DNA from: Candidatus Levybacteria bacterium GW2011_GWA1_37_16
GTDB lineage: Bacteria; Patescibacteriota; Microgenomatia; Levybacterales; UBA12049
DNA: 38,847 nucleotides
NCBI GenBank assembly: GCA_943354875.1
Contig: CALRDJ010000003.1
Coordinates: 1 to 38,847 of the forward strand
Direction of reading: 5' to 3'
Shown: piece after piece, positions 9,676 to 36,047 of the stretch
How the letters are laid out: the number at the start of each line of letters is the position of its first letter
Numbering within the stretch: the stretch's first letter is position 1
Translations under genes and position numbers: made by a program
The notes under the pieces: model-generated
Told to the model about the DNA's origin: nothing
What the model saw: the letters and a program-made list of their open reading frames with translations, nothing else
Database searches by the model: none

Positions 9676-10493
9676 TATTTTTTATTTTTTATCAATGACT
9701 TCGATGGCCAAAACTTCATGCCTCCCCATCCTTGCAATTGATACTGCTGTAGTATACCAAAAATCGTGAATGTATTCCAATAGAGAGACAAACCGACAGG
9801 AAGCTGATATGAAAAAAGGGCAATCATGAAGGGGAAAAGATAGGTCGATTGGGTCTGAAAAGCAGTGGCAAAGTCATCTGATTTTTTCTTTTCATTCGGA
9901 TCCTTCGGCAGTATCATCATCTTTGATTGAATAAACTGCAAAACCCCCGTAATCACCGGGATAAGAAGTAAATATGGCATCGTCTGTAAAAGAGCTGAGG
10001 GTGAGAGGCCAAGTGGGATACCGAAAAAACTTAAATCCCATGGCATGGTCAGCTTAAATGTTGAGATATATACTTCGTTGTTTACAAAACGCATGGCCGC
10101 GTCTGGCGACATATTTACAATTTTTTGAAATGCATCATAAAGTGCCCAGATAATCGGCAACTGAATTATGAGAGGAAGGCATCCTGCGGCTGGATTTATC
10201 CCGTGCTCTTTATACAACTTCATCGTTTCTGTCTGAAGCTTTTTACTATCGTTCTTATGTTTATCTTTTAATCGAGAGAGGTGTGGCGCTACTGTCTGCA
10301 TCTGCTTAGAAGCTTTTAGCTGAGAATGCGTGAGGGGATACAATACTATTCTCATAACAACTGTTAAGAGAATGAGAGAAAATCCAAGCGGATAGGGCAC
10401 ATGAAGCAACAGGAGCCCATGATAAATCCCCGCCAAGACAGTAACTATTGGCTTTGTTAATGCTGCGTCAAATAAAAATCCTACTGTTTCCAT
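9675..10493 (-). CDS. yidC: membrane protein insertase YidC
   Basis: LYKEHGINPAAGCLPLIIQLPI and GLSLYW motifs. Start moved to ATG 10493 (TAATG overlap with yidD). Confidence 0.92.
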   Translation of the reverse strand: METVGFLFDAALTKPIVTVLAGIYHGLLLLHVPYPLGFSLILLTVVMRIVLYPLTHSQLKASKQMQTVAPHLSRLKDKHKNDSKKLQTETMKLYKEHGINPAAGCLPLIIQLPIIWALYDAFQKIVNMSPDAAMRFVNNEVYISTFKLTMPWDLSFFGIPLGLSPSALLQTMPYLLLIPVITGVLQFIQSKMMILPKDPNEKKKSDDFATAFQTQSTYLFPFMIALFSYQLPVGLSLYWNTFTIFGILQQYQLQGWGGMKFWPSKSLIKNKK

Positions 10494-10702
10494 TATGCAA
10501 AACTGAACTGACTGCAAGAGAGTACTCTCTTCAAGCCACGTTTCATTCCTTTCACTATACCATGATCTTCAACCATCATGATGGTATATTCTGAACAACT
10601 AGGATTAAATCTGCATCCGCGAGAAACACCAAGTAGTTGGTGAAGAAGGGGAGATACGATAATTTTGTAAATGGTTAATGCCATAAGTAAAAGTTTTTTC
10701 AT
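10493..10702 (-). CDS. yidD: membrane protein insertion efficiency factor YidD
   Basis: YKIIVSP, CRFNPSCSEY, RVLSC; synteny rnpA-yidD-yidC. Confidence 0.92.
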   Translation of the reverse strand: MKKLLLMALTIYKIIVSPLLHQLLGVSRGCRFNPSCSEYTIMMVEDHGIVKGMKRGLKRVLSCSQFSFA

Positions 10703-25781: not shown

Positions 25782-26102
25782 CTATTTACAGTTATCAAAG
25801 CCGAATTGCTTTATGCAGTCAGTTCCCGTAAGTCCTGAGATGAAATTTACTATGAAAAACGATATAAGTATTATAACCAGTCCTATGACTGCGTAGGTGA
25901 GGGTGTTTCTAGCCGAGTCGGCTTGTTTCGGGTCTCCACCAGCAGAGATGTACTTATAGCCCGCGTAGAGTATCATGAACACTGCTACGATCCCAGAAAA
26001 TATTAATAGACCATTCACTACGTTTTGAAATACTGCGGGAATGCACTTCAGGGTGGCCACGCCATTTACTACACAGTCTTTTACTATAATATTCCAATCC
26101 AT
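25782..26102 (-). CDS. VirB2/TrbC-like T4SS pilin
   Basis: Two TM helices around GYKYISAGGDPKQADSARNTLTYAVIGL. Confidence 0.8.
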   Translation of the reverse strand: MDWNIIVKDCVVNGVATLKCIPAVFQNVVNGLLIFSGIVAVFMILYAGYKYISAGGDPKQADSARNTLTYAVIGLVIILISFFIVNFISGLTGTDCIKQFGFDNCK

Positions 26103-26157
26103 ATATTAAGCGTAGCAAAGAAAAAGAGGTAAGTAAAGGGAATTATGGTGAAACAAC

Positions 26158-26574
26158 CTAGTAACCAGGAGCACCAGGGCGAAGGACAGGGATTTGGAGG
26201 TCGGTTAAGCTGACTCCGAATATGCCTCCAATGAATTGGATGATAAAGAATGCGAGAAGAGCGATAACGAGCCCTACGATGGCTGCCACTATGTGATTTC
26301 GTGCTGCGTCCACTGCTGCTTTATCGCCACCTGAAGTAATCCATTTGATGCCCCCATAAATAAGGAAGAAAAGTGCTGCTACAACTGCTACGATAATGAG
26401 AATAGTAATAAGGCGTGATATGAGGCCACCTAACGAGCCAAAATTAAAAGTACAAAGTAGATTAGCAGTTCTTTGATCGCCTCCGCATAAATTAACCGTA
26501 CTCTGTGCAAATGCTGGAGCTGCATAGGAGAGATAAGAGAGAAATCCTGTGGTTATGCCGATAGCTTTTTTCAT
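26158..26574 (-). CDS. VirB2/TrbC-like T4SS pilin with signal peptide
   Basis: Signal peptide ending PAFA; GGIKWITSGGDKAAVDAARNHIVAAIVGL. Confidence 0.82.
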   Translation of the reverse strand: MKKAIGITTGFLSYLSYAAPAFAQSTVNLCGGDQRTANLLCTFNFGSLGGLISRLITILIIVAVVAALFFLIYGGIKWITSGGDKAAVDAARNHIVAAIVGLVIALLAFFIIQFIGGIFGVSLTDLQIPVLRPGAPGY

Positions 26575-26633
26575 TAATCTAATCTAATAACATTTCACTA
26601 TCCTTGTCAAGCCCCTATTCTCTTTGGGGCGTA

Positions 26634-26741
26634 GACCCCTCAACAATCGCTCTTCGAGCCGCGCTACGAATAGTAGGCCTGCCCGAAATGCTTCGCATAT
26701 CGAAGCGGGCGGGTAAGGCGAAAAGTAAGATGTGTGGGGTC
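26634..26741 (+). ncRNA. unknown structured three-way-junction element, copy 2
   Basis: Closed by GACCCC/GGGGTC; homologous to 20785-20895. Confidence 0.55.
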
Positions 26742-26757
26742 AAGGAGTAAATTCCCC

Positions 26758-27116
26758 TGTCATCCTGAACTTGTTTCAGGATCTCCCTTTCGTCATTGCG
26801 ATCCCGATCTAATCGGGAGAAGCAATCTCATTGTCATTCTGGAGTCCGCCGAAGGCGAGACGATAGAATCTCTTTCTCTCCTCGTTACTTTTTCCGAGGA
26901 AAAGTAACACAAAAACTCTTTTGCACTAAGCCTCCACCTAAAAATACTCCGTTCTCTTATCGGGGGATTGTCCTCCCCCTTCAGCAGTTCGCTGGATTCT
27001 CCCTGATAGCTCACTCCATATTTTTTTAACGGTGACTTCTTAAAGCAAAAGAAAGGGAGACCGCATATAGTTCTGCTATAGACACTGGGAGATCCTGAAA
27101 CAAGTTCAGGATGACA
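26758..27116. mobile_element. MITE/REP-like composite element with perfect 30-bp terminal inverted repeats
   Basis: TGTCATCCTGAACTTGTTTCAGGATCTCCC at 26758-26787 and its exact reverse complement at 27087-27116; further GTCAT...ATCTC palindromes at 26791-26829 and 26832-26872. Confidence 0.7.
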
Positions 27117-27157
27117 CCGATGACACCGATGACAACGAGGAGAGAGGAGAGGGATCG

Positions 27158-27505
27158 TTATGGGGTTCCTTGGGATAAGTCTACTCCAAACAATCCTCCT
27201 ATGAATTGGACGATAAAGAGCGCGAGAAGACCGATTATAAGTCCGATGATGCTGTAGGTGAGGCGATTGCGTGCTGTCTGGAGTGCTTGTTTATCTCCGC
27301 CTGATATAGTCCACTGAATACCACTGTAGATAAGAGAGAAAAGCGCTGCGATGATGACCACGATTATAAATACGGTAATACCGCGCTGGATGATGGCTTG
27401 GCCGGCTCCGCCAGCTTCAAGCCCGCCGGTGGGGATTCCTGTGGGAGCCTGAATGACTACAGGTGTTCCATTCGAACCCGGAATTGATAATGATAGTAAT
27501 CTCAT
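27158..27505 (-). CDS. VirB2/TrbC-like T4SS pilin
   Basis: GIQWTISGGDKQALQTARNRLTYSIIGL between two TM helices. Confidence 0.8.
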   Translation of the reverse strand: MRLLSLSIPGSNGTPVVIQAPTGIPTGGLEAGGAGQAIIQRGITVFIIVVIIAALFSLIYSGIQWTISGGDKQALQTARNRLTYSIIGLIIGLLALFIVQFIGGLFGVDLSQGTP

Positions 27506-27510
27506 CGTTT

Positions 27511-27537
27511 GAATTATGAATAAAGAATTATGAATTA
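27511..27537. repeat. 7-nt repeat array (GAATTAT type), 3' flank of four-helix-bundle gene 1
   Basis: GAATTAT GAATAAA GAATTAT GAATTA; overlaps the stop codon. Confidence 0.75.
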
Positions 27538-27923
27538 CGTGATTTAGAGCTTCGTATAAGTCCGTTTGTTATTTTATGAACAATTATCGCTTGTTCTGCA
27601 AGTTTATCATAGTTTTCTTCTGAAATGAAGCCAACGTCCCTGGCAACTAATAGTTGATTTTGAAGTTCAGTAATTGACCCGAGAGATATTGAATAAAACT
27701 GTGTTTTTTCTTTGTAAGATTGTCTGCTAAAGCCTTCCGCAATATTCGAGGTTATGGATATGGCGCATCTTCTCATCTGGCTAACTAGGCCGAAAAGCTC
27801 TTCTTTGGGAAATGTTCCCGTAGTCGAATAAACCATCAAGACTAATTTATGTCCTTCTTTCCAAGCATTCAAATCATGGAATGTCCTAATCCTGCTTTCC
27901 GTAATTCTTAATTCATGCGTCAT
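27528..27923 (-). CDS. four helix bundle protein (23S rRNA intervening-sequence protein family)
   Basis: FHDLNAW, FPKEELFGLVSQMRR, SITSNIAEG, GSITELQNQL. ATG 27923 avoids overlap with the upstream gene. Confidence 0.9.
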   Translation of the reverse strand: MTHELRITESRIRTFHDLNAWKEGHKLVLMVYSTTGTFPKEELFGLVSQMRRCAISITSNIAEGFSRQSYKEKTQFYSISLGSITELQNQLLVARDVGFISEENYDKLAEQAIIVHKITNGLIRSSKSRNS

Positions 27924-27930
27924 AATTCTT
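27886..27930. repeat. inverted 7-nt repeat array (TAATTC type), 5' flank of four-helix-bundle gene 1
   Basis: GTAATTC TTAATTC ATGCGTC ATAATTC at 27901-27928 plus weaker upstream units; complementary to 27511-27537. Confidence 0.65.
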
Positions 27931-27936
27931 GCGAGA

Positions 27937-29292
27937 TCACTTTCCAAATCCCGGGATTTTTAGGATGTCTACTCCTACTACTTGGAGGATGACGAGGGCA
28001 AAGATCATAAACAGAAGTCCGATGACAGCAGAGGTGAGTGTCTCTCGTGCTGCTTTTAGTTTTTCAGGGTCTCCCTGAGAGGTCATAAATCGATAGCCAG
28101 TAGCGATAATTATGAGAAGGAGTATTCCCCCTGCTAGGCTTAGGATGATGGAGAAGATTTTTTTTACAAAATCAGCGGGATTTGTATCGATATCGCCTAT
28201 GGCCGTATTTACCTTCTTGCATTGATAGGTTTTTCCTCCCCATATATCTTTTCCTTCAACCAGGCTATTTTCTGCGCAAGGAAGCTTCATGGTTTGAGGT
28301 CTGGCTGGATCTGGGAGCTTGAAGTCTCCGGCGTTGGCTCTGGAGCATTGAGCTGTTCCTGGCGCAGGGGGTCCGGGGGTAAAGTTTAAGAGGATGCCAT
28401 TTGTATCGCAGTGGGTGGTGGCTATAGAGAGCCCTGAAACTTTATTAAGGCCTAAGGTAAATACAGTGAGGACTACATTTGCTACATCTCCTACATATGT
28501 AGGTCCGTTGCTGAGGACTGTACTCATCTTTTCTATGCAGAACTTTTTACTGCCTACCTCATCTGTCGAGTTTGCAGGGATGGGAAATTCATCGAATATC
28601 GTCTGATTTTTTTTAGTAGTAAATGCTGGTTGGGCAAAGACACCTCCTTCCCACCACCACCAGTAAGTGGTTTCGGGAGATAGATTAGTGATTCGTGAAA
28701 CTTGAGCTACTGTTCCTGCTTGGAAGGTGCATGCATTTTGGGTTACGACGTCTATTTTCGGTAGCGTGGCTTGTGATGCAGTGGGTTTTTTTTTACCAAC
28801 TTGTATGGTAGTTTCGCCAAGAAAGTATTTTTTATCAGTACATTTGCGTATATCAGTAGTCTTACATATGGCTATGGTCCATGGTTGATCTGGGAATTCA
28901 TCTCCAGTAACAAATGATCGTATTCCCGTAAGTCTTTCATGCAACGGCCCTATTAAGCTAATGTCAGTGGTTAATTTGGTAGCAGAAGATGGGGTAACCC
29001 AATGATGGTCAGGTTGACGCGTGACTAATATTCCGCCGCCTTCTTTAAAAAAATTTTCAGGAAACCCTCCAATCTTTGGGTAGGCAAGGACATAATAAGA
29101 TCCTGCAAACGAGCAGTCAGGGTCGCCAGAAATGGTAATACTCATGGTTCCGCTAAAGGTTGCTGGTAGTGGATCGTTGCCAAATAAAGTGTCTGTTGTG
29201 AGAGTGCAGGCGGCATGTGCTGTCGAAGGAGTGCTCAGGAATGTGGAGATTACGAAAAATAACGATAGTACGACAGGCAGAAATCTTCTCAC
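27937..29292 (-). CDS. large exported Cys-containing domain fused to a C-terminal VirB2/TrbC-like pilin
   Basis: Signal peptide (VRRFLPVVLSLFF...TAHA) from GTG 29292; C-terminal VNTAIGDI...GYRFMTSQGDPEKLKAARETLTSAVIGL. Confidence 0.75.
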   Translation of the reverse strand: MRRFLPVVLSLFFVISTFLSTPSTAHAACTLTTDTLFGNDPLPATFSGTMSITISGDPDCSFAGSYYVLAYPKIGGFPENFFKEGGGILVTRQPDHHWVTPSSATKLTTDISLIGPLHERLTGIRSFVTGDEFPDQPWTIAICKTTDIRKCTDKKYFLGETTIQVGKKKPTASQATLPKIDVVTQNACTFQAGTVAQVSRITNLSPETTYWWWWEGGVFAQPAFTTKKNQTIFDEFPIPANSTDEVGSKKFCIEKMSTVLSNGPTYVGDVANVVLTVFTLGLNKVSGLSIATTHCDTNGILLNFTPGPPAPGTAQCSRANAGDFKLPDPARPQTMKLPCAENSLVEGKDIWGGKTYQCKKVNTAIGDIDTNPADFVKKIFSIILSLAGGILLLIIIATGYRFMTSQGDPEKLKAARETLTSAVIGLLFMIFALVILQVVGVDILKIPGFGK

Positions 29293-29338
29293 CTCTTCAT
29301 CGTAGCGCAAAAACAGCAGGAATTGCAAGCAACGTAAC

Positions 29339-29436
29339 TAGACGGTAGAAGGTGGAGAGTTGAAGATAAAGCTTTGACGGTAGAAAATAGATGGTAGAAG
29401 ATAGAATTTTGAAGATTGAAGATGGAGCATAGAATG
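29339..29436 (+). repeat. 14 x 7-nt degenerate tandem repeat (TAGAAGA-like)
   Basis: TAGACGG TAGAAGG TGGAGAG TTGAAGA TAAAGCT TTGACGG TAGAAAA TAGATGG TAGAAGA TAGAATT TTGAAGA TTGAAGA TGGAGCA TAGAATG. Confidence 0.85.
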
Positions 29437-29450
29437 AATACAATGAGATT

Positions 29451-29813
29451 GTGATCAGAAGTTTTAAAGACTTAGAAGTTTACCAAGAGTCATATGAACT
29501 TGCTATTTTGGTTAACCGAGAAGTTAACAAATTGCCACTTTTTGAACGAAATGACCTAGGATCGCAACTTCGGAGAGCATCAAAATCCGCGCCTTCAAAT
29601 ATTGCAGAAGGCTGGGCTAAAAGAAGGTTTGAAAAGCAATTTAAGCTACATTTGGATTCAAGCATAGGCTCATGCAATGAAATGGAAGTTCATATAAGCA
29701 TGGCGAGAGATTTAAGTTTTTGGAAAAAAGATTTTTGTGAAAGTCTACTTCAACGATACTTACTGCTTGGTGGGAAAATAACCAACTTAAGAAATAATTG
29801 GAAAACGTTCTAA
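29451..29813 (+). CDS. four helix bundle protein (23S rRNA intervening-sequence protein family)
   Basis: IRSFKDLEVYQ, LPLFERNDLGSQLRRASKSAPSNIAEG, GSCNE. Confidence 0.9.
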   Translation: MIRSFKDLEVYQESYELAILVNREVNKLPLFERNDLGSQLRRASKSAPSNIAEGWAKRRFEKQFKLHLDSSIGSCNEMEVHISMARDLSFWKKDFCESLLQRYLLLGGKITNLRNNWKTF

Positions 29814-29883
29814 TCTACCTTCTACGTTCTATCTTCAAGTATCTATTCTCCATTTTCTATTATCTACCGTCTACGGTCTATTG
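29814..29883 (-). repeat. 10 x 7-nt degenerate tandem repeat, inverted relative to 29339-29436
   Basis: On + strand: TCTACCT TCTACGT TCTATCT TCAAGTA TCTATTC TCCATTT TCTATTA TCTACCG TCTACGG TCTATTG, starting immediately after the stop codon. Confidence 0.85.
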
Positions 29884-29918
29884 ATATTGTCAGTTTTTTG
29901 TATCGTTTTCGTGTTCTT

Positions 29919-29983
29919 GTCAGAGATTCGTGTCTATTAGTGTGGTTTGTCGTCAAGCGTGTTTACGCTTCTTCGTGTATCTT
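29919..29983 (+). promoter_or_regulatory. GTCAG...GTCAAG-N20-TATCTT promoter, copy 3 (middle box degenerate)
   Basis: GTCAG 29919, GTCAAG 29952 (33-nt offset as in copies 1 and 2), TATCTT 29978-29983, ATG 29991. Confidence 0.5.
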
Positions 29984-29990
29984 TGTGTTC

Positions 29991-32942
29991 ATGGGAGAGC
30001 AAGTTATAAGACCAGAATCGTTGACAAGTCAGCCTCATCCCGCATATGCTAGAGGTGGAGATATTTCTATGCCCATAGACAACACTGGAGACACACGAAG
30101 ACCTCCTCGTCCGAGAACACAGGAAGAAGTTATAGCCGCGATGCCTCGCAGAGAGGGTTATGAGGTAGCAGAAGAAATGGAGAGGGCAGAGCGTGAAAGA
30201 GGTGAGCGGGTAGCTCGAGAGGCCTCTCGAGCAGGGCCTCAGCAAAGACCGCGACTTGCGGAAAACATGCGGCCGATATCTGGGGGAGCGAATGGAGTAC
30301 ATATCCAAGCAGATGACATCCAGGATCCCAGGATCAGAAGAGAGTTAGAGCGATTAAATAATTTCATGGATGTAAACGATGGTGTTCATGATACGACGCT
30401 TCTTCAGGAAGCAGACAAGCACATAGGGCGTTTAGAGGGGGTAAATCCTGCAGATCGATCAAATGCATTGAATCGAATTCGTGCGGAGCAGGTTGCAGCG
30501 CGCCAGCACATGGAGCAGGAAGCATTAAGACATAAACCTCAGCGTAACAGGCGGGAAGAAGAGTCAGATGATCTAGATTTTCATCCAACTGATTTTTATG
30601 GAGCAACGAAGCTCTCAAAGAATGAGATAGAGAATATTCCAAAGTGGATAGAACAGATGATTAAAACTGTTCGTGATCGTTCAGAAGCTCATGGTGGAGA
30701 CCACGGTCTTCACGCAGTGAGTGGTGACCTAGAGCACAATGATCTAGACCAGCTGTTTAACCGCATGTTTAGGAGGGTAGATAATTCTCCCCGTGAATCA
30801 TTTGAGCATGCATTTGGACAAGTCGGTAGTCAGGAGGAAACAGAATTTTTTACTCAGATCCAGCAATATCGCTTTCAGCTCCAGAAGGAGCATAAGCATG
30901 AAGAGTCGGGCGTGGTCGAGCAGATAATCCACAAATATGAAGTAGAGAAGAGTGCGCGTAGCACACTCCATAATGCTTACTATATCGCTGATTCAGGACG
31001 AGAGATGAAAGACTTCGTCGGATTTATCGCGACGTTCGCCTCTGAATATGCAGATGCGGCATTTCAAAACGCTCCTGAAGTAGAAGCAGCAGTGCGTGTG
31101 CGTGAGCAGGTCTTATTTCAGATAAAGCGGGAAAATAATGGATTTATTCCTCACTCGGTCATCGCCTTTAATCCGAAAATTTATGGATCAGAATTTGATC
31201 ATCGTGCTAAAGCTATGATGCGTACGATGAATGGTAAGAAGCTTTTCGGGGATATACTCGGAGAGTGGAAGATAGATCGGGCCTTGGAGCTTTCTCGAGG
31301 ACTTGGTATGGTCACCTGGCGGTATTTGGAGATCGTAGCAGAGTGTCCACTCCCTGATATTAATGGATCGAATAAGGCTCAGCAAAGTATTCCATGGGAG
31401 CTCATCACGTGGGACATGAATCCGATGGATCATAAAGTAAAGAGGTATCGTATCGGTCGACAGATGCAGTCAATTCTGATCGCAGGAGGAACGCGTACAA
31501 AACAAGGCATGTGGGATAAAAATGAATTGTCAGGCGCATTAGAGCAGTACGAGATAAGCAAGAATATCGATGAGAGTTCCGGGTTCGTAAGCGGTATGGA
31601 CCGGAATAACTTATTTAAAATCGGCGGACCCTTTACGCACACGGGATGGCGTACATTCGTAGCTGCGATGGATGAGAATATGGAGGGACTGGAGCCGATG
31701 CTTGAAAACGATCCGGGAGTAGCGATAAAACTGTTATTCAATAGATATCATGACCACGATCAGGTAAAAGAGCGTGACGCATTTTTAAAAAGTCCAGGTG
31801 TCGCAGGATTATCGACTGCAGAGACAAAACGGCTGTGGGATGAGGAGAAAGAGCGAACAAAGGACGCTGCAAACGAACGGTGGAGTGATGACGATGCGAA
31901 TGCTTTTAAATCGACCACTGCGCGTATTCCACACGTGATGCTTCGTCTCATCACAGACCCTGGATATAAGCTTTTAGATCCAGAAGAGAGGACGAAGTTG
32001 ATGAGAGATATTTTTGGAGATCGCGTGAATCAACCTGGTTTTCAGGAGTACTACTCAAATGTAGAAACACAGCTAACGATCGCAAAGGAAGGACTCCTCA
32101 AAAGGAGAAGGGAATATATAGCTGAGAAAGAACGACGAGAAAAGGCACATGAAAGCCTAGAGGGCTTAGTGTTTAAAAACAGATTAGTGGATGATCCGGA
32201 TGATCCGGATGATGATTTTAAGCTTATTACTGATGATGGTCTGCGAGACCAGGCGATAACGCTTCATCGGGTGATGACTGACCGTATGGATAACGATGAT
32301 ACGTTAGTGGAGAAGATTATAGAAAAGCATAAAGCGCGTGGATTTATGTTCGCGATTACTGCTGAGGATATTCCTTGGGGAGAATTTGCCTATCGAAAAA
32401 CTGGAGGTCGAGGATTTTTCACTCGAAAAGCAAATGATAACATGGCAGACAAGGGTGCGACCGATGAGCTCATGAATATCCTGAAGAATATTAAGCAGTT
32501 TAAGAAGCCAGAGCAAATATATGAGTCTATCTATAAGATGTTCATGGCTGCTGAGACACATGATCTTGATCGGGCACAGGATGCGGTGATATTCGTTCTA
32601 AAAGGTATTATCCGGGTATATCAAAAAGATGGAATACTGAAGATACCTATCTTAGGAGATTTAGAGAGCGCTCGAAGACAAGCGACTGGTCAGTACGAAG
32701 GAGACTCTCTCGCTCAGGATTTCTATGGGCGAAGTATTGCTCCGGCGTGGGATGACGATGCTATTTATAATCTTATATCGATGTTCCAGCCTATTCTCGA
32801 AAAAGATCAAATAGAGGCGCTTCGAAAAGAAGTCGGGGCGACTTTAGGGAAAGCGTTGTGGGCTAAGTCAAAATTAGCAATATACTTAGGTCTTATAACG
32901 TTTATGCTGGAGTTTTTTAACAAATTAACGAAGACGAAATAA
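29991..32942 (+). CDS. large helical hypothetical protein with C-terminal membrane anchor and RPISGGA motif
   Basis: Start moved from 29898 to ATG 29991; highly charged; single hydrophobic tail LAIYLGLITFMLEFF followed by basic residues. Confidence 0.85.
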   Translation: MGEQVIRPESLTSQPHPAYARGGDISMPIDNTGDTRRPPRPRTQEEVIAAMPRREGYEVAEEMERAERERGERVAREASRAGPQQRPRLAENMRPISGGANGVHIQADDIQDPRIRRELERLNNFMDVNDGVHDTTLLQEADKHIGRLEGVNPADRSNALNRIRAEQVAARQHMEQEALRHKPQRNRREEESDDLDFHPTDFYGATKLSKNEIENIPKWIEQMIKTVRDRSEAHGGDHGLHAVSGDLEHNDLDQLFNRMFRRVDNSPRESFEHAFGQVGSQEETEFFTQIQQYRFQLQKEHKHEESGVVEQIIHKYEVEKSARSTLHNAYYIADSGREMKDFVGFIATFASEYADAAFQNAPEVEAAVRVREQVLFQIKRENNGFIPHSVIAFNPKIYGSEFDHRAKAMMRTMNGKKLFGDILGEWKIDRALELSRGLGMVTWRYLEIVAECPLPDINGSNKAQQSIPWELITWDMNPMDHKVKRYRIGRQMQSILIAGGTRTKQGMWDKNELSGALEQYEISKNIDESSGFVSGMDRNNLFKIGGPFTHTGWRTFVAAMDENMEGLEPMLENDPGVAIKLLFNRYHDHDQVKERDAFLKSPGVAGLSTAETKRLWDEEKERTKDAANERWSDDDANAFKSTTARIPHVMLRLITDPGYKLLDPEERTKLMRDIFGDRVNQPGFQEYYSNVETQLTIAKEGLLKRRREYIAEKERREKAHESLEGLVFKNRLVDDPDDPDDDFKLITDDGLRDQAITLHRVMTDRMDNDDTLVEKIIEKHKARGFMFAITAEDIPWGEFAYRKTGGRGFFTRKANDNMADKGATDELMNILKNIKQFKKPEQIYESIYKMFMAAETHDLDRAQDAVIFVLKGIIRVYQKDGILKIPILGDLESARRQATGQYEGDSLAQDFYGRSIAPAWDDDAIYNLISMFQPILEKDQIEALRKEVGATLGKALWAKSKLAIYLGLITFMLEFFNKLTKTK

Positions 32943-32973
32943 CTTTTTATAGAGCTGATATACGTCTCTCGCC

Positions 32974-34800
32974 TTATCCCATATCAACCAAGTCATCTCC
33001 TATTGTGCCCATGGCAGGCATAGATTTGGTTGGACCGGAGTGACCAACTGCATTATCAACTTTTTCTCCAAATCTCATTTTCTGTAGGAGTAGTCCAAGC
33101 GGCGTGTGGGATTTCGATGGATCAATGAACGCAGAGAGAGAGCTGTATGGACTACTGAGTGAATGCCAGGCGCTGCTGACTACGCCAGGACCTACTGCAG
33201 CCGCCTGGAGAATAGAAGGAGTGTATTTGAATTGAGAAGCTTTGAATGTATCGCGCATAATATTTACCACCTGAGGAGCTAGGAGAATAAGGCCAAGTCC
33301 TACAAGTGCGCCAATGCCGTTGGTCGTGCTTGGGTTGGCAATCATGGGAGGGACAAATGTAGTCTCTGGATTAGCACTTGCGAAACTATTTATCAAGACT
33401 CGTCCCATGAGAAAAAGCCCTATGGTGACGGGAAATACAGATGAGTATGCTGCCATGTCACGGAGCCACGCACCGAAGTTAAGTGGAGACCCGGGGAATA
33501 CTCCCGCCATAATCCAAAACGGTGAGAAGATAATATCCAGAAGAAGAAAGACATATGCCTGGAGAAGCTGGAGCCAGAGGCGAAACAGTGACCACATTAT
33601 CGCAATAGCGAGGATGAGCCCAGTGAGAAGAAATCCGATCGCATTTAATATTTGAGGAGCAAAAGCAAAAAACCCAGCTGCCATCGCAGCGCCTATGGTA
33701 GCTCCTATAGCGTCTTTTAATAATCCGCCGCTAAAGTTGGCCACGATAGACGCCATAAGAACTGGTACTCCGATAGTGGCGCCAACACCAGTAAGCGAGA
33801 GAGCAGTTGCGACGAGATTGGCAGCTTTGGTGCCAAACGTATATCCAAGTGCGAAGCCAATTCCTCCGACGATGGTTCTCCCGATGGCAGTTTCTCCTAC
33901 TGGTTGGAAAAAATCTCCGCCTGTCTGAGCGGCAGGTCCTACCAGGCTGAGAAAGCCGAGCTTATCTCCTCCTACGCCTCCTATGGCATTTGCTGCGGTG
34001 AAGGGATTGGTGGCATTGGTGATCGTGGTAAGACTGGGTAAGTCATCGGCAAGTTTTTTATCAGCCTGGGAGATGATATTTGCAGAGAGATATATGGTGG
34101 TATACATCATGTCGATGATAAATCCAGAAATCGAGAATGAAAAAGTGACGAGAAGGAGGCTGACAATCATCTTCGGTATTTGGTTCTCGATAGTCATGAC
34201 CGTGCGTGGATCGATCTTAAACCGGAGCATGATAGCAAATCCTACGACTAAGAAAACGAGAGTAAATAAGAGATATACGATATTTCGAAATGCCATCCAC
34301 AGACTCATGATCGGTTGTAGTCCGCAAAATCCCTGCCCGTGGAACTTTAGTAAATCTGGAGTGCAGGGATCAGCTGCATAGGTTTTTTTCGCAAAGCCGA
34401 AGTTCCCAGCGAGGTGATCGAAGTATTGGTGGGTATGTACGGGAATATTGAATGTCATGCTGATGAGTCCAGTCATCATGCCGATAGCGCCTTTACTGTC
34501 TTCTACATATCCCAATTTTCCAGTTTTCGTATCGATGCCGAGGCATTTGGCGGTAGGGCTCGTGGGATCTTTTCCAGTCAGTGCGCACTGAGCAGCAACC
34601 ATAACTTCGATAAAGGCGTTTTGGGTATAGGTGTGCATGTTATGAGGAACATCTGGATTCGTATCCATCTTGTTCGGCACAGAGTTAGTGGTGGGCGAAG
34701 GAGTGGTCTGGGCGAAGGAGGGGGATACGGCTAGTGGCGTATAGCAGATAGCGAGTAGGATAAAACTAAGAGCGAGTTTTTTTAGGGCAGGGAAGGTCAT
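32974..34800 (-). CDS. VirB6/TrbL-like polytopic membrane protein
   Basis: Signal peptide ending PSFA, LWMAFRNIVYLLF, IPKMIVSLLLVTFSFSISGFIID, IFSPFWI..GVFPG, WLR; start ATG 34800; T4SS context. The family call is inference. Confidence 0.65.
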   Translation of the reverse strand: MTFPALKKLALSFILLAICYTPLAVSPSFAQTTPSPTTNSVPNKMDTNPDVPHNMHTYTQNAFIEVMVAAQCALTGKDPTSPTAKCLGIDTKTGKLGYVEDSKGAIGMMTGLISMTFNIPVHTHQYFDHLAGNFGFAKKTYAADPCTPDLLKFHGQGFCGLQPIMSLWMAFRNIVYLLFTLVFLVVGFAIMLRFKIDPRTVMTIENQIPKMIVSLLLVTFSFSISGFIIDMMYTTIYLSANIISQADKKLADDLPSLTTITNATNPFTAANAIGGVGGDKLGFLSLVGPAAQTGGDFFQPVGETAIGRTIVGGIGFALGYTFGTKAANLVATALSLTGVGATIGVPVLMASIVANFSGGLLKDAIGATIGAAMAAGFFAFAPQILNAIGFLLTGLILAIAIMWSLFRLWLQLLQAYVFLLLDIIFSPFWIMAGVFPGSPLNFGAWLRDMAAYSSVFPVTIGLFLMGRVLINSFASANPETTFVPPMIANPSTTNGIGALVGLGLILLAPQVVNIMRDTFKASQFKYTPSILQAAAVGPGVVSSAWHSLSSPYSSLSAFIDPSKSHTPLGLLLQKMRFGEKVDNAVGHSGPTKSMPAMGTIGDDLVDMG

Positions 34801-34803
34801 ACG

Positions 34804-34870
34804 ATGAATTATGAAGTAGGGATCACGAATCATGGAAAACCATAATTCATAATTCTTTATTCATGATTCC
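34804..34870. repeat. gene-less inverted pair of 7-nt arrays
   Basis: ATGAATT ATGAAGT AGGGATC ACGAATC ATGG, loop, CA TAATTCA TAATTCT TTATTCA TGATTCC; 34843-34869 is a 26/27 match to the reverse complement of 27511-27537. Confidence 0.75.
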
Positions 34871-34928
34871 AATTACAGTGTGGAATATTTGGGAGAAAAA
34901 GTCAACGCTGAGAGCGGAAACGGATACT

Positions 34929-35106
34929 CTATGCTATTAAGCTTTTAATTTGCTCTTTGAATGGAGATAGATCTTTTTGAACGACCTCCCATATAAGTTC
35001 TAAATCTAGTCCAAAATATTCATGGACAATCTTATCTCTCATTCCTGCAATCTCTTTCCATACTCTCCAAAATATGTCTAAGAAAGACTTGTGGATCCTT
35101 TTTCAT
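34929..35106 (-). pseudogene. HEPN/DUF86 (HepT-like) toxin with internal deletion and frameshift
   Basis: MKKDPQVFLRHILES is fused out of frame to WKEIAGMRDKIVHEYFGLDLELIWEVVQKDL (R-x4-H motif); ATGA overlap with the MNT gene. Confidence 0.85.
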
Positions 35107-35393
35107 AAAATTTGTATTTGGTCTTTCTGAATATATACTTTTAAGTATGGAGAAATAGATTTGTATGTTAATAAATCAATCTTTTTCCCAAGCGCTTCCT
35201 GCAATTTGTTCTCAAGCCCTATTAAATCAAGAAGACTTTTTCCTTTCGGAAGTTCCACGAGTACATCAATGTCGCTGTCTTCTGTTTCTTCTCCGCGAAC
35301 ATATGACCCAAAAAGAGAAGAGCGTGTAACGCCTGCTTCTTTCAGGATGGGTAAGGCTTTATTTTTAATATTGTCTAAATTTGCTTGCGTCAT
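35103..35393 (-). CDS. minimal nucleotidyltransferase (MNT) antitoxin
   Basis: LFGSYVRGEETEDSDIDVLV (GS-x10-DxD), LGKKIDLLT. Confidence 0.9.
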   Translation of the reverse strand: MTQANLDNIKNKALPILKEAGVTRSSLFGSYVRGEETEDSDIDVLVELPKGKSLLDLIGLENKLQEALGKKIDLLTYKSISPYLKVYIQKDQIQIL

Positions 35394-35495
35394 AAAGATA
35401 TCACCTTTTTGATTATATCAAACCTGAAAAGAATTTCTCTCGAGGAAAAAAGTCAACGGGACTTACGGTAATTGTTTCGGAAATAACAAGTAAAT

Positions 35496-35623
35496 CGTCA
35501 TTGCGATCCCGTTTAATCGGGAGAAGCAATCTCAGGACCTGACGGCAGACCCGCTTCGACGCGAGGTGAGCAAACCAGAGATCGCCACGTTTCCCCGCCT
35601 TGGCGGGGATCCTCGCGATGACG
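35496..35623. repeat. CGTC-tagged REP-like palindromic dimer
   Basis: CGTCATTGCGATCCCGTTTAATCGGGAGAAGCAATCTC (35496-35533) with partner GAGATCGCCACG...CTCGCGATGACG (35578-35623); first unit nearly identical to 26791-26829. Confidence 0.75.
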
Positions 35624-35648
35624 TGACTTTGTTTAGTAATTACGTCTA

Positions 35649-36047
35649 TTACTCACTCTTTTTAGAGTTTTTCGATAGCCACGAAGAAATTTCTTCAACT
35701 TTCATATCTTCCTTCTCGATTTGTAATATAAACTGTACTAAATTTTTTTGTTTCACTTCCAGGGAATAGTTATTCATCTCTAAAAATAAAAGTGTGGTGG
35801 CCGTAGCAGTTCTTTTATTTCCATCGACAAAAGGATGATTCATGATCAAGGAGTGAAGCAGCGATGCGGCTTTATGAAAAATAGAGGGATACAAATCTTC
35901 TCCATCAAAACTAGATTGTGGTCTGAATACTGCAGATTCTAAAAGTCCTAAATCACGTAAGCCGTGACTGCCGCCATATCGTTCAATTTGGTCTGTATGT
36001 ACGGTAATGACTTGTTCGAGGTTAAGAAAGTACGTATGAGAAGTCAC
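35649..36047 (-). CDS. doc: Fic/Doc family toxin
   Basis: YGGSHGLRDLGLLESA, HPFVDGNKRTA. Confidence 0.9.
   Translation of the reverse strand: MTSHTYFLNLEQVITVHTDQIERYGGSHGLRDLGLLESAVFRPQSSFDGEDLYPSIFHKAASLLHSLIMNHPFVDGNKRTATATTLLFLEMNNYSLEVKQKNLVQFILQIEKEDMKVEEISSWLSKNSKKSE

What the first reader, a model, noticed from the sequence alone, without database searches (positions are those of the whole stretch)
34804..34870. Empty heptamer hairpin matching cassette 1, directly upstream of the VirB6-like gene
Seen: two inverted 7-nt arrays separated by only about 6 nt; one arm is 26/27 identical to the reverse complement of 27511-27537; it ends a few nt from ATG 34800, the same placement relative to a start codon as cassette 1. 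Inference: a non-autonomous derivative, excision scar or pre-insertion target, or a trans-acting binding site that lets the four-helix protein regulate T4SS genes.
Basis: partly seen in the sequence, partly recalled or inferred. Interest (0 to 1): 0.75.

Follow-up and report, generated by a model that had tools for sequence, protein, structure and literature searches.

The report
Empty heptamer-repeat hairpin in gene leader
A 68-base hairpin built of 7-letter repeats sits between a promoter and the start of a secretion-system gene, and it is the gene-less twin of the repeat brackets that surround a small, widespread four-helix protein gene, which suggests that these puzzling repeats and this protein of unknown function belong together.

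Summary
Window 34804-34871 holds two inverted arrays of 7-nt units around a 4-nt loop. The right arm is 26/27 identical to the reverse complement of 27511-27537 (0 of 100 shuffles gave a second match).

The 'four-helix' genes belong to PF05635 (S23p, '23S rRNA intervening-sequence protein', Avd-like). All 3 copies in this genome are bracketed by inverted heptamer arrays. So are 69 of 78 evaluable subfamily loci across Patescibacteria, 5 of 8 cyanobacterial or Azospirillum plasmid loci, and a true 23S rRNA intervening sequence.

The hairpin is the ORF-less form of such a bracket. It keeps the start-codon end of the left array and the stop-codon end of the right array. It is a ~66-nt insertion in what relatives have as a 7-22-nt leader, between a conserved promoter and the ATG of a TrbL/VirB6-like gene.

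The genome holds about 100 such arrays, at least 18 of them empty hairpins and some in frame inside genes.

In four relatives (two independent lineages) the array at this gene's promoter matches the heptad family of the local PF05635 cassette. The two arms share a motif rather than a co-varying stem.

My best reading is a non-autonomous derivative that keeps recognition sites of the cassette protein. This is unproven.

The parts
34804..34835 (.). Left arm: four 7-nt units (GAAT-type heptads, two of them degenerate) ending in ATGG. On the + strand this ATG corresponds to the start codon that ends the left array in full cassettes. On the - strand an in-frame upstream ATG (A at 34833) lies here.
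34836..34839 (.). Loop AAAA
34840..34871 (.). Right arm: CCAT plus four units. 34843-34869 is 26/27 identical to the reverse complement of 27511-27537. Read on the + strand it encodes KTIIHNS, the C-terminus of PF05635 subfamily members.
34877..34905 (-). Promoter of the downstream gene: -35 TTGACT (34900-34905), 17-nt spacer, -10 CACACT (34877-34882). The motif TTGAC[AT]-N17/18-[CA]AnACT stands upstream of the orthologous ATG in 17 of 20 loci.
32974..34800 (-). TrbL/VirB6-like membrane protein gene (608 aa, signal-peptide-like N-terminus MTFPALKK, aligned with MKLPAL of orthologs). The hairpin occupies its 5' leader.
27508..27947 (-). Cassette 1: PF05635 gene 27528-27947 (E 1.4e-35) with inverted heptad arms 27508-27539 and 27900-27928 (83% complementary). 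The start codon lies in the upstream array and the stop codon in the downstream array.
29339..29883 (+). Cassette 2: PF05635 gene 29451-29813 (E 4.1e-23) with inverted arms 29339-29433 and 29814-29883 of another heptad family (GAAGATA/GACGGTA).

Best explanation
The element is an ORF-less (non-autonomous) copy of the heptad-array bracket that surrounds PF05635 genes (S23p / 23S-rRNA-IVS protein, relatives of the retroelement protein Avd).

Shown:
- It is real and non-random.
- It belongs to the same GAAT-type heptad family as cassette 1, 7.3 kb away, and its right arm is that cassette's nearest relative in the genome.
- It keeps the two ORF-proximal ends of a cassette.
- It is an insertion of about 66 nt in a leader that is 7-22 nt long in 12 relatives (33-48 nt in 3 more, one of which carries a heptamer array there). 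It lies between a conserved promoter and the ATG of a TrbL/VirB6-like gene, so it would form the very 5' end of that mRNA.

Inferred: the heptads are recognition sites of the pentameric four-helix protein, one heptad per subunit, as DNA or as the RNA hairpin. The relation would be that of a transposase or RAYT to its terminal repeats and of MITE/REP elements to their autonomous partners.

The empty hairpin would then still be bound by the cassette-1-type protein. That would couple expression of the downstream gene to that protein, through a roadblock just after the -10 or by binding or occluding the 5' hairpin next to the start codon.

The origin would be loss of the ORF from a former cassette, with later exchange between its right arm and cassette 1's arm.

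My confidence that the element is an ORF-less family member inserted in the leader is about 0.9. My confidence in protein recognition and a trans effect is about 0.4.
For: Identity and family:
- establish the element and its match to cassette 1.
- PF05635 was assigned. All 3 copies in the genome are bracketed by arrays.

Generality of the bracket:
- Arm complementarity exceeds the maximum of the shuffles in 23 of 30 loci from 30 related genomes.
- The same holds in 69 of 78 evaluable subfamily loci across Patescibacteria; 77 of 78 have a period-7 array on at least one side.
- It holds in 5 of 8 plasmid loci from cyanobacteria and Azospirillum, one of them a true 23S rRNA IVS.

Junction anatomy.

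Insertion in the leader:
- The promoter motif is found in 17 of 20 loci.
- The distance from the -10 to the ATG is 7-22 nt in 12 relatives, against 76 nt here.

Motif rather than stem:
- Permuting unit order in one arm does not lower complementarity (59 loci, mean z 0.40, 0 loci with p<=0.05).
- Core positions are 93% complementary. Variable positions are 65% complementary in register and 58% when slid.

Arm size: 4-5 units in 52 of 73 upstream arms and 56 of 74 downstream arms. The solved homolog 2GSC has five chains.

Co-occurrence: array counts track PF05635 copy number over 41 genomes (Spearman 0.58). Eight of the 10 genomes without the gene have at most 5 arrays.

Family match near this same gene in other lineages: G025 and G008/G013/G023, with local clustering of those families.
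Against: - No binding, expression or processing data exist for this organism, and no RNA run is listed.
- PF05635 has no known sequence-specific nucleic-acid binding or catalytic activity.
- Most heptad families in this genome (for example the AAAGTnn hairpins) have no PF05635 gene with matching arrays among its 3 copies.
- G010 and G015 have 41 and 37 arrays but no PF05635 match.
- Arrays also lie in frame inside coding genes and at varied positions around the orthologous promoter. This fits selfish spread as well as function.
- Five relatives examined (G018, G027, G031, G034, G040) have no array upstream of the gene. G012 has only a weak AACGTTC repeat there, of a family unlike its cassette's.
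- The left arm is degenerate (2 of 4 units off the GAAT core).
- G008, G013 and G023 share their arrangement by descent. Independent lineages with a family match are therefore three (including G000), and short-range copying would also explain them.
- The match between 5 units and a pentamer is numerology.
Confidence: 0.4

Rival explanations
1. Inert remnant. A former PF05635 cassette, or a MITE-like copy of its arms, landed in the leader and lost or never had the ORF. Nothing binds it in trans. Any effect is only that of a 5' stem-loop in cis (mRNA stability, occlusion of the start region).
For: - About 100 arrays of many families, most without a cognate gene in this genome.
- In-frame insertions in a glycosyltransferase linker, a 5'-3' exonuclease domain and a prepilin peptidase, as is known for Rickettsia palindromic elements (recalled).
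- Variable presence and position at the orthologous site.
- A degenerate left arm.
- G010 and G015 have arrays but no PF05635.
Against: - The right arm is 26/27 identical to cassette 1's arm, while the rest of the family differs at 3-5 or more positions.
- A same-family array abuts the -35 of this gene in three genera. That is hard to keep without constraint or continuing exchange.
- The arms keep the motif rather than a stem.
Confidence: 0.3
2. RNA processing or stability element that works like an ORF-less 23S rRNA intervening sequence. The transcribed hairpin is cut by RNase III, or protects the 5' end, independently of any PF05635 protein.
For: - The hairpin folds better than shuffles and lies at the predicted 5' end of the mRNA.
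- RNase III is encoded in the genome.
- In Coxiella the S23p IVS stem, which includes tandem heptamers next to the ATG, is cut by RNase III (PMC4990558, passages read).
- Cassettes are co-oriented with the upstream gene in 70 of 75 loci and with the downstream gene in 67 of 75. The baseline for neighbouring genes is 0.71. This fits dependence on read-through transcripts.
Against: - There is no register-specific complementarity between arms. Predicted stems are 4-5 bp helices broken every 7 nt, here 14 contiguous pairs including G-U.
- A stem alone does not explain 7-nt periodicity.
- Solo one-directional arrays are common.
Confidence: 0.15
3. Pre-insertion or homing site. The hairpin is the primary element, and PF05635 ORFs move into hairpin loops by recombination between matching arms.
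For: - Empty and filled forms of one family coexist 7 kb apart.
- Arms of 30 nt at 93% identity could support gene conversion.
- Hairpins outnumber cassettes.
Against: - In full cassettes the start and stop codons lie inside the arrays. An incoming ORF would therefore lack its own start and stop.
- The hairpin centre keeps ORF-end nucleotides. Deletion explains this more simply.
Confidence: 0.1
4. Chance AT-rich low complexity, or an intrinsic terminator of the upstream MNT/HepT remnant.
For: The region is A+T-rich and lies downstream of the HepT fragment.
Against: - 0 of 100 shuffles gave the 27-mer match.
- There is a period-7 excess genome-wide.
- No terminator-like site was called at the element.
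- A conserved promoter lies between the HepT fragment and the hairpin.
Confidence: 0.02

Closest known systems
23S rRNA intervening sequences (IVS) with an S23p ORF (Leptospira, Coxiella, Brucella, Xanthomonas; here Azospirillum locus L137), and ORF-less IVS hairpins of enterobacteria (the latter recalled)
   Same: - The same protein family (PF05635) lies between complementary termini.
- In Coxiella tandem heptamers precede the ATG and their number varies between strains (PMC4990558, passages read).
- The Azospirillum IVS has inverted heptad arrays.
- Both ORF-bearing and ORF-less forms exist.
   Different: - The element is not in rRNA. It lies in an mRNA leader, and the cassettes lie between protein genes.
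- The arms are degenerate motif arrays rather than a near-perfect 28-bp stem.
- There are dozens of copies and many heptad families per genome.
MITE / REP-type non-autonomous palindromic elements with an autonomous partner (REP-RAYT; Rickettsia palindromic elements) - recalled
   Same: - Short inverted-repeat element without a gene, whose arms match those around a gene elsewhere.
- Many copies, intergenic and in frame inside genes.
   Different: - The partner gene encodes no known transposase or nuclease.
- No target-site duplication was seen.
- The arms are tandem 7-nt units.
Heptamer tandem repeats of unknown function: cyanobacterial STRR sequences (recalled) and TAACTGA repeats of Beggiatoaceae, Cyanobacteria and Bacteroidetes (PMC4679880, abstract and passages read)
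   Same: Tandem 7-nt units, 2-6 or more copies, mostly intergenic and within a few nt upstream of start codons, with many related heptamers in one genome.
   Different: - Those are described as direct repeats (one indirect set in 170).
- They are not linked to PF05635. That paper has 0 occurrences of '23S', 'S23' or 'intervening'.
- Here the arrays come as inverted pairs and bracket PF05635 genes.
Heptad operator arrays of the omega repressor of plasmid pSM19035 (recalled)
   Same: Arrays of 7-bp units in direct or inverted order next to promoters, read by a small oligomeric protein that also controls its own gene.
   Different: - Omega is a ribbon-helix-helix dimer. PF05635 is a four-helix-bundle pentamer (2GSC).
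- Binding here is only inferred.
Avd of diversity-generating retroelements (same Pfam clan; bAvd match E 1.8e-4, below cut-off)
   Same: Four-helix bundle, pentameric, basic nucleic-acid-binding partner of a mobile element (recalled from the DGR literature; PMC10053308 passages read for the homology).
   Different: - No reverse transcriptase, template or variable repeat lies beside the cassettes.
- Avd is not known to read heptads.

Membership tests
PF05635 heptad-array cassette family (as defined here) | Inverted arrays of 7-nt units of one family, 4-5 units per arm | tested here: met
PF05635 heptad-array cassette family (as defined here) | A PF05635 ORF between the arms | tested here: not met
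   Only 4 nt lie between the arms. It is therefore filed as an ORF-less derivative, not as a cassette. Cassettes 1 and 2 meet the feature.
PF05635 heptad-array cassette family (as defined here) | Left array ends in the ATG; right array begins with the last codons and the stop | tested here: met
   The centre ATGGAAAACCAT and KTIIHNS in the right arm.
23S rRNA intervening sequence | Inserted in helix 25 or 45 of 23S rRNA | tested here: not met
   No rRNA match in window 26000-36000. The element lies between a promoter and a protein gene.
23S rRNA intervening sequence | Complementary termini that form a stem | tested here: met
   -21.9 kcal/mol, z -3.4
23S rRNA intervening sequence | Excised by RNase III | not testable with these tools
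   The RNase III gene is present. No RNA data.
MITE / REP-like non-autonomous element | Arms match those flanking a gene-bearing partner in the same genome | tested here: met
   26/27 match to cassette 1
MITE / REP-like non-autonomous element | Many dispersed copies | tested here: met
   98 array elements, of which 18 are hairpin-type and 7 belong to the GAAT family
MITE / REP-like non-autonomous element | Target-site duplication | tested here: inconclusive
   The flanks GTAATTG and ATCGT show no clear duplication. The ends of the arrays are fuzzy.
MITE / REP-like non-autonomous element | Partner encodes a transposase or RAYT | tested here: not met
   The partner is PF05635 only.
Heptamer tandem repeats (STRR / TAACTGA type) | Tandem 7-nt units close upstream of a start codon | tested here: met
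   3 nt from ATG 34800. Period-7 excess genome-wide.
Heptamer tandem repeats (STRR / TAACTGA type) | Direct orientation only | tested here: not met
   Inverted pair
Intrinsic terminator | G+C-rich stem followed by a T run | tested here: not met
   No site was called at 34804-34871.
Protein operator array | Specific binding by a regulator | not testable with these tools
   Indirect evidence only: family match near the same promoter in other lineages; motif rather than stem.

The most novel reading that the evidence does not exclude
PF05635 proteins (S23p, the ORFs of 23S rRNA intervening sequences) are sequence-specific readers of 7-nt repeat arrays, with one heptad per subunit of the pentamer.

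Together with their flanking arrays they form a widespread selfish or regulatory module. Its gene-less derivatives would be the heptamer repeats long known but unexplained in cyanobacteria (STRR), Beggiatoaceae (TAACTGA) and now Patescibacteria.

This hairpin would be a natural case in which such a derivative puts a secretion-system gene under the control of the cassette protein.
Probability: 0.3. Interest if true: 0.85.

Novelty: new variant of a known kind. Interest (0 to 1): 0.65.

Why it matters
Three things have lacked an explanation for decades:
- what the S23p/PF05635 proteins inside rRNA intervening sequences do;
- why some bacteria are full of tandem heptamer repeats next to start codons;
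- what the abundant small repeats in Patescibacteria genomes are.

The data here tie them together. The protein gene is almost always bracketed by inverted heptad arrays, in three phyla and in a true rRNA IVS. Gene-less arrays of the same families are scattered through the same genomes.

The hairpin is a compact test object. It comprises a conserved promoter, a 68-nt element and a start codon, with the presumed cognate protein encoded 7 kb away and a second cassette of another heptad family as a built-in specificity control.

I found no paper that states the general link. Searches found only the Coxiella note on heptamers in its IVS. The library lacks most subscription journals, so a prior statement cannot be excluded.

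Tried and rejected
1. I first read C7:10208-10406 (two GAAT arms 122 nt apart) as a half-deleted cassette, on a weak tblastn match. Pfam showed that the 122 nt are real prepilin-peptidase coding sequence on the other strand. That reading is withdrawn.

2. An ungapped hairpin finder (>=19/24) found only 19 hairpins, mostly of another repeat family. I replaced it by pairing period-7 regions.

3. Register-specific covariation of the arms was looked for and not found. A strict co-varying RNA stem is therefore not supported.

4. Sequencing runs: no RNA holder is listed. Contigs of X1 and X2, which are possible sources of the window, bridge the hairpin unchanged. X3 and X4 gave no listed contig across it. 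There is therefore no information on presence/absence polymorphism.

5. No Rfam family matches the hairpin or the cassettes.

6. No terminator-like site is called at the element.

The subfamily alignment A2 was used instead. The 80 loci are therefore one subfamily, not the whole family.

8. The promoter motif of the VirB6-like gene was found upstream of 0 of 75 cassettes. Only this one motif was scanned, so the result does not show that cassettes lack promoters.

Ralph and McClelland 1993 is not held, so it was not read.

10. No structure prediction or complex prediction was run.

Full report
OBSERVATION

On the + strand, 34804-34831 is four 7-nt units. ATGG follows (34832-34835), then the loop AAAA (34836-34839), CCAT (34840-34843), and four more units (34844-34871).

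The right arm 34843-34869 equals the reverse complement of 27511-27537 at 26 of 27 positions. No second match appeared in 100 dinucleotide-preserving shuffles. The 30-nt arms are 93% complementary.

The left arm is only 77% like 27510-27535. As RNA the element folds at -21.9 kcal/mol against -13.3 +/- 2.6 for 200 shuffles; one shuffle was as good.

The array begins 3 nt from ATG 34800 on the minus strand. Cassette 1's array begins 2-4 nt from ATG 27505.

WHAT THE 'FOUR-HELIX' GENES ARE

Gene 27528-27947(-) matches Pfam PF05635 (23S_rRNA_IVP) at E 1.4e-35. Gene 29451-29813(+) matches at E 4.1e-23. The first also matches the solved pentamer XCC0516 (2GSC, five chains) at E 2e-21.

The window is a contig of a 1.05-Mb, 40% G+C genome with T4SS-pilin, PrgI and VirB4-like genes next to dnaA. 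The genome has three PF05635 genes.

All three are bracketed by inverted arrays of 7-nt units, each with its own unit sequence: GAATTAT-like, GAAGATA/GACGGTA-like, and CAGTTnn/nnAACCG on contig C29.

THE GENOME IS FULL OF SUCH ARRAYS

- A period-7 scan gives 108 regions at >=15 of 21 matches, against 9-56 for periods 5, 6 and 8-11.
- At >=16 it gives 75 regions, against at most 15.
- Merged, these are 98 elements.
- My script marks 18 as hairpin-type, meaning a complementary partner arm within 60 nt.
- A few more, listed as single regions, span both arms: C10:7843-7927, C28:7452-7533, C53:5154-5225 and C69:2605-2670.
- Seven elements are of the GAAT family.
- Most families, such as the AAAGTnn hairpins, have no PF05635 gene with matching arms in this genome.
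- Outside my crude ORF calls the arrays usually fill the spacer between one gene's stop and the next gene's start.
- About half fall inside crude ORFs.
- Three were checked, and all three are in-frame insertions in real genes: the linker of a GT4 glycosyltransferase, the N domain of a 5'-3' exonuclease, and a prepilin peptidase.

THE BRACKET IS A GENERAL PROPERTY OF PF05635 GENES

PF05635 was found in 31 of 41 related genomes, with up to 20 copies.

In the best locus of each of 30 genomes (one is the window's own), the two flanks were more complementary than any of 200 shuffles in 23 of 30. Unit sequences varied widely.

A scan of one genome per species for the cassette-1 subfamily gave 80 loci across Patescibacteria. 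Of these, 78 were evaluable:
- 77 have a period-7 array (>=15/21) on at least one side.
- 67 have one on both sides (>=14).
- 69 exceed all of 100 shuffles in arm complementarity.
- Shuffled flanks reach 15 at most.

Arms have 4 or 5 units in 52 of 73 upstream arms and 56 of 74 downstream arms.

The ORF is co-oriented with the upstream gene in 70 of 75 loci and with the downstream gene in 67 of 75. The baseline for neighbouring genes in this genome is 720/1018 = 0.71.

Outside the phylum I fetched eight plasmid loci, seven cyanobacterial and one from Azospirillum. Seven have a strong array on at least one side, and 5 of 8 have arm complementarity above the shuffles.

The Azospirillum locus is a true 23S rRNA intervening sequence. 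In cyanobacteria several of the genes sit between cas genes. This was noted before without mention of repeats (PMC3936711, passages read).

JUNCTIONS

In full cassettes the start codon is the end of the left array (for example ...GAATTATGGAAAA...). The last codons and the stop are the beginning of the right array (...AAAACCATAATTCATAA, encoding KTIIHNS*).

The hairpin's centre, ATGGAAAACCAT, is the two ends joined over the A run. Its right arm still reads KTIIHNS, 7 of 7 identical to the C-terminus of locus L051.

This fits loss of the ORF body better than insertion of an ORF that would lack its own start and stop. Because ATGG and CCAT are themselves complementary, the argument is not conclusive.

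CONTEXT

Orthologs of the downstream gene were found in 36 of 41 genomes. Upstream of the ATG, 17 of 20 loci carry TTGAC[AT]-N17/18-[CA]AnACT.

From the end of the -10 to the ATG there are:
- 7-22 nt in 12 relatives;
- 33-48 nt in 3 relatives (one of which has a one-directional heptamer array there);
- 76 nt here.

In the window the promoter is -35 at 34900-34905 and -10 at 34877-34882. Then come GTAATTG, the hairpin, ATCGT and the ATG.

The start at 34800 is chosen because MTFPALKK aligns with MKLPAL of the orthologs. An in-frame ATG at 34833 lies in the hairpin.

The element is thus a ~66-nt insertion that would form the 5' end of the mRNA. The 'VirB6-like' label rests on an automatic cluster name (score 0.96); Pfam found nothing.

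A LINK WITH THE NEIGHBOURING CASSETTE THAT RECURS

PF05635 genes lie within 10 kb of this gene in at least 14 of the 26 genomes that have both. I counted this by eye from the coordinates; six matches are not listed. A 20-kb span is about 2% of these genomes.

- G039 has a cassette directly upstream of the gene's promoter.
- In G025 a hairpin of TTTCTAT units abuts the -35, and the local cassette has the same units.
- In G008, G013 and G023 a one-directional array of CTAGTNG units abuts the -35, and the local cassette has the same units. These three share the arrangement by descent.
- With G000 that makes three independent lineages.
- G018, G027, G031, G034 and G040 have no array there. G012 has only a weak AACGTTC repeat of a family unlike its cassette's. 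G019 and G029 have arrays only in the signal-peptide coding part.
- The families concerned are locally clustered in the T4SS-like region.
- In G000 the hairpin's right arm has cassette 1's arm as nearest relative (1 mismatch, next 3-5).

Over 41 genomes, counts of two array types track PF05635 copies (Spearman 0.58, not corrected for kinship). Eight of 10 genomes without the gene have at most 5 arrays. G010 and G015 have 41 and 37.

STEM OR MOTIF?

If the arms were kept as a base-paired stem, mirrored units should match at their variable positions. They do not.

- Permuting the order of units in one arm leaves the best complementarity unchanged (59 loci, mean z 0.40; none with p<=0.05; 13 with p<=0.2).
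- Core positions are 93% complementary.
- Variable positions are 65% complementary in register and 58% when slid by one or two units.

The arms therefore share a motif in opposite orientation. This points to recognition of the unit, or to a copying process that homogenises units, rather than to selection on pairing alone.

MECHANISM

I commit to the following, with the steps marked.

Shown: the hairpin is an ORF-less member of the PF05635 bracket family, inserted in the leader.

Inferred: the heptads are the recognition sites of the pentameric protein. Hairpins stand to cassettes as MITE or REP elements stand to their autonomous partners. This copy therefore exposes the downstream gene to the cassette-1-type protein.

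The rivals are:
- an inert remnant with only a cis 5' stem-loop effect;
- an RNase III or stability element like an ORF-less IVS. RNase III is present, and in Coxiella the enzyme cuts at the first heptamer of the IVS stem (PMC4990558, passages read);
- a homing site.

Against my reading: there is no biochemical evidence, there are orphan families and orphan genomes, and there are in-frame insertions that look purely selfish.

KNOWN WORK

The Coxiella paper notes three tandem heptamers before the S23p ATG and strain variation in their number. MacGregor 2015 (PMC4679880, abstract and passages read) describes TAACTGA and other heptamer repeats a few nt upstream of start codons in Beggiatoaceae, Cyanobacteria and Bacteroidetes. 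It proposes a translational role and does not mention S23p.

My searches found no statement of the general link. The library lacks most subscription journals. I opened no supplements.

LIMITS

- Gene calls are my own crude ORF calls.
- The 80 loci are one protein subfamily.
- Related genomes are not independent.
- Orientation of the 'virtual ORF' in the hairpin (+, opposite to the flanking genes) is uncertain, because the element is nearly symmetric.
- No expression data exist.

Noticed in passing
window 26758-27116: A second palindromic repeat family (30-nt arms beginning TGTCATCCTGAA, 100% complementary here) encloses 299 nt that are a mosaic of other small repeats. More than 20 short copies with loops of about 3-40 nt lie elsewhere in the genome and in other community members.
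   Followed up: partly
G000 C28:7452-7533, C28:4877-4995, C7:10208-10245 and 10363-10406 (loci L139, L140): Heptamer arrays lie in frame inside real genes: the interdomain linker of a GT4 glycosyltransferase, the N domain of a 5'-3' exonuclease, and both sides of the catalytic segment of a prepilin peptidase.
   Followed up: partly
G000 C18:11301-11992: Inverted heptamer arrays (CTTGAAA type) flank a two-gene module of small ORFs that looks like a toxin-antitoxin pair (no family search was run) and has its own TTGACA-N17-TATACT promoter. Cargo other than PF05635 can therefore lie between such arms.
   Followed up: no
window 34930-35393: The MNT nucleotidyltransferase gene (35103-35393, -) is followed by only the last ~40 residues of a HepT ribonuclease profile. 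This is a truncated toxin-antitoxin pair.
   Followed up: no
loci L142, L144, L146, L148, L149 (first ~25 codons of the VirB6-like orthologs); window about 34730-34770: The signal-peptide coding part of this gene is itself 7-nt periodic in several relatives (TTATTCn, TCTATTC, GTTATTn units) and faintly so in the window. Arrays may have been taken into coding sequence.
   Followed up: no
window 29869: A related strain in run X3 lacks exactly 7 nt in the right array of cassette 2 (one contig, depth 3.4). This is a one-unit copy-number change like that reported for the Coxiella IVS.
   Followed up: no
loci L132, L133, L138 (cyanobacterial plasmids): PF05635 genes with heptamer arrays sit between cas6 and cas4, or between cas10 and cmr3, in the same orientation. 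In L132 the arrays on the two sides are direct, not inverted (14 or more CTAAAAG units).
   Followed up: partly
genomes G010 and G015: Many heptamer arrays (41 and 37 matches to two patterns) but no PF05635 match, in genomes 94% and 97% complete.
   Followed up: no
G000 C7:7716-8775 and 9894-10679: GAAT-family arrays outside the window lie at type IV pilin genes and the prepilin peptidase, so this family is found at two sets of surface-appendage genes.
   Followed up: no
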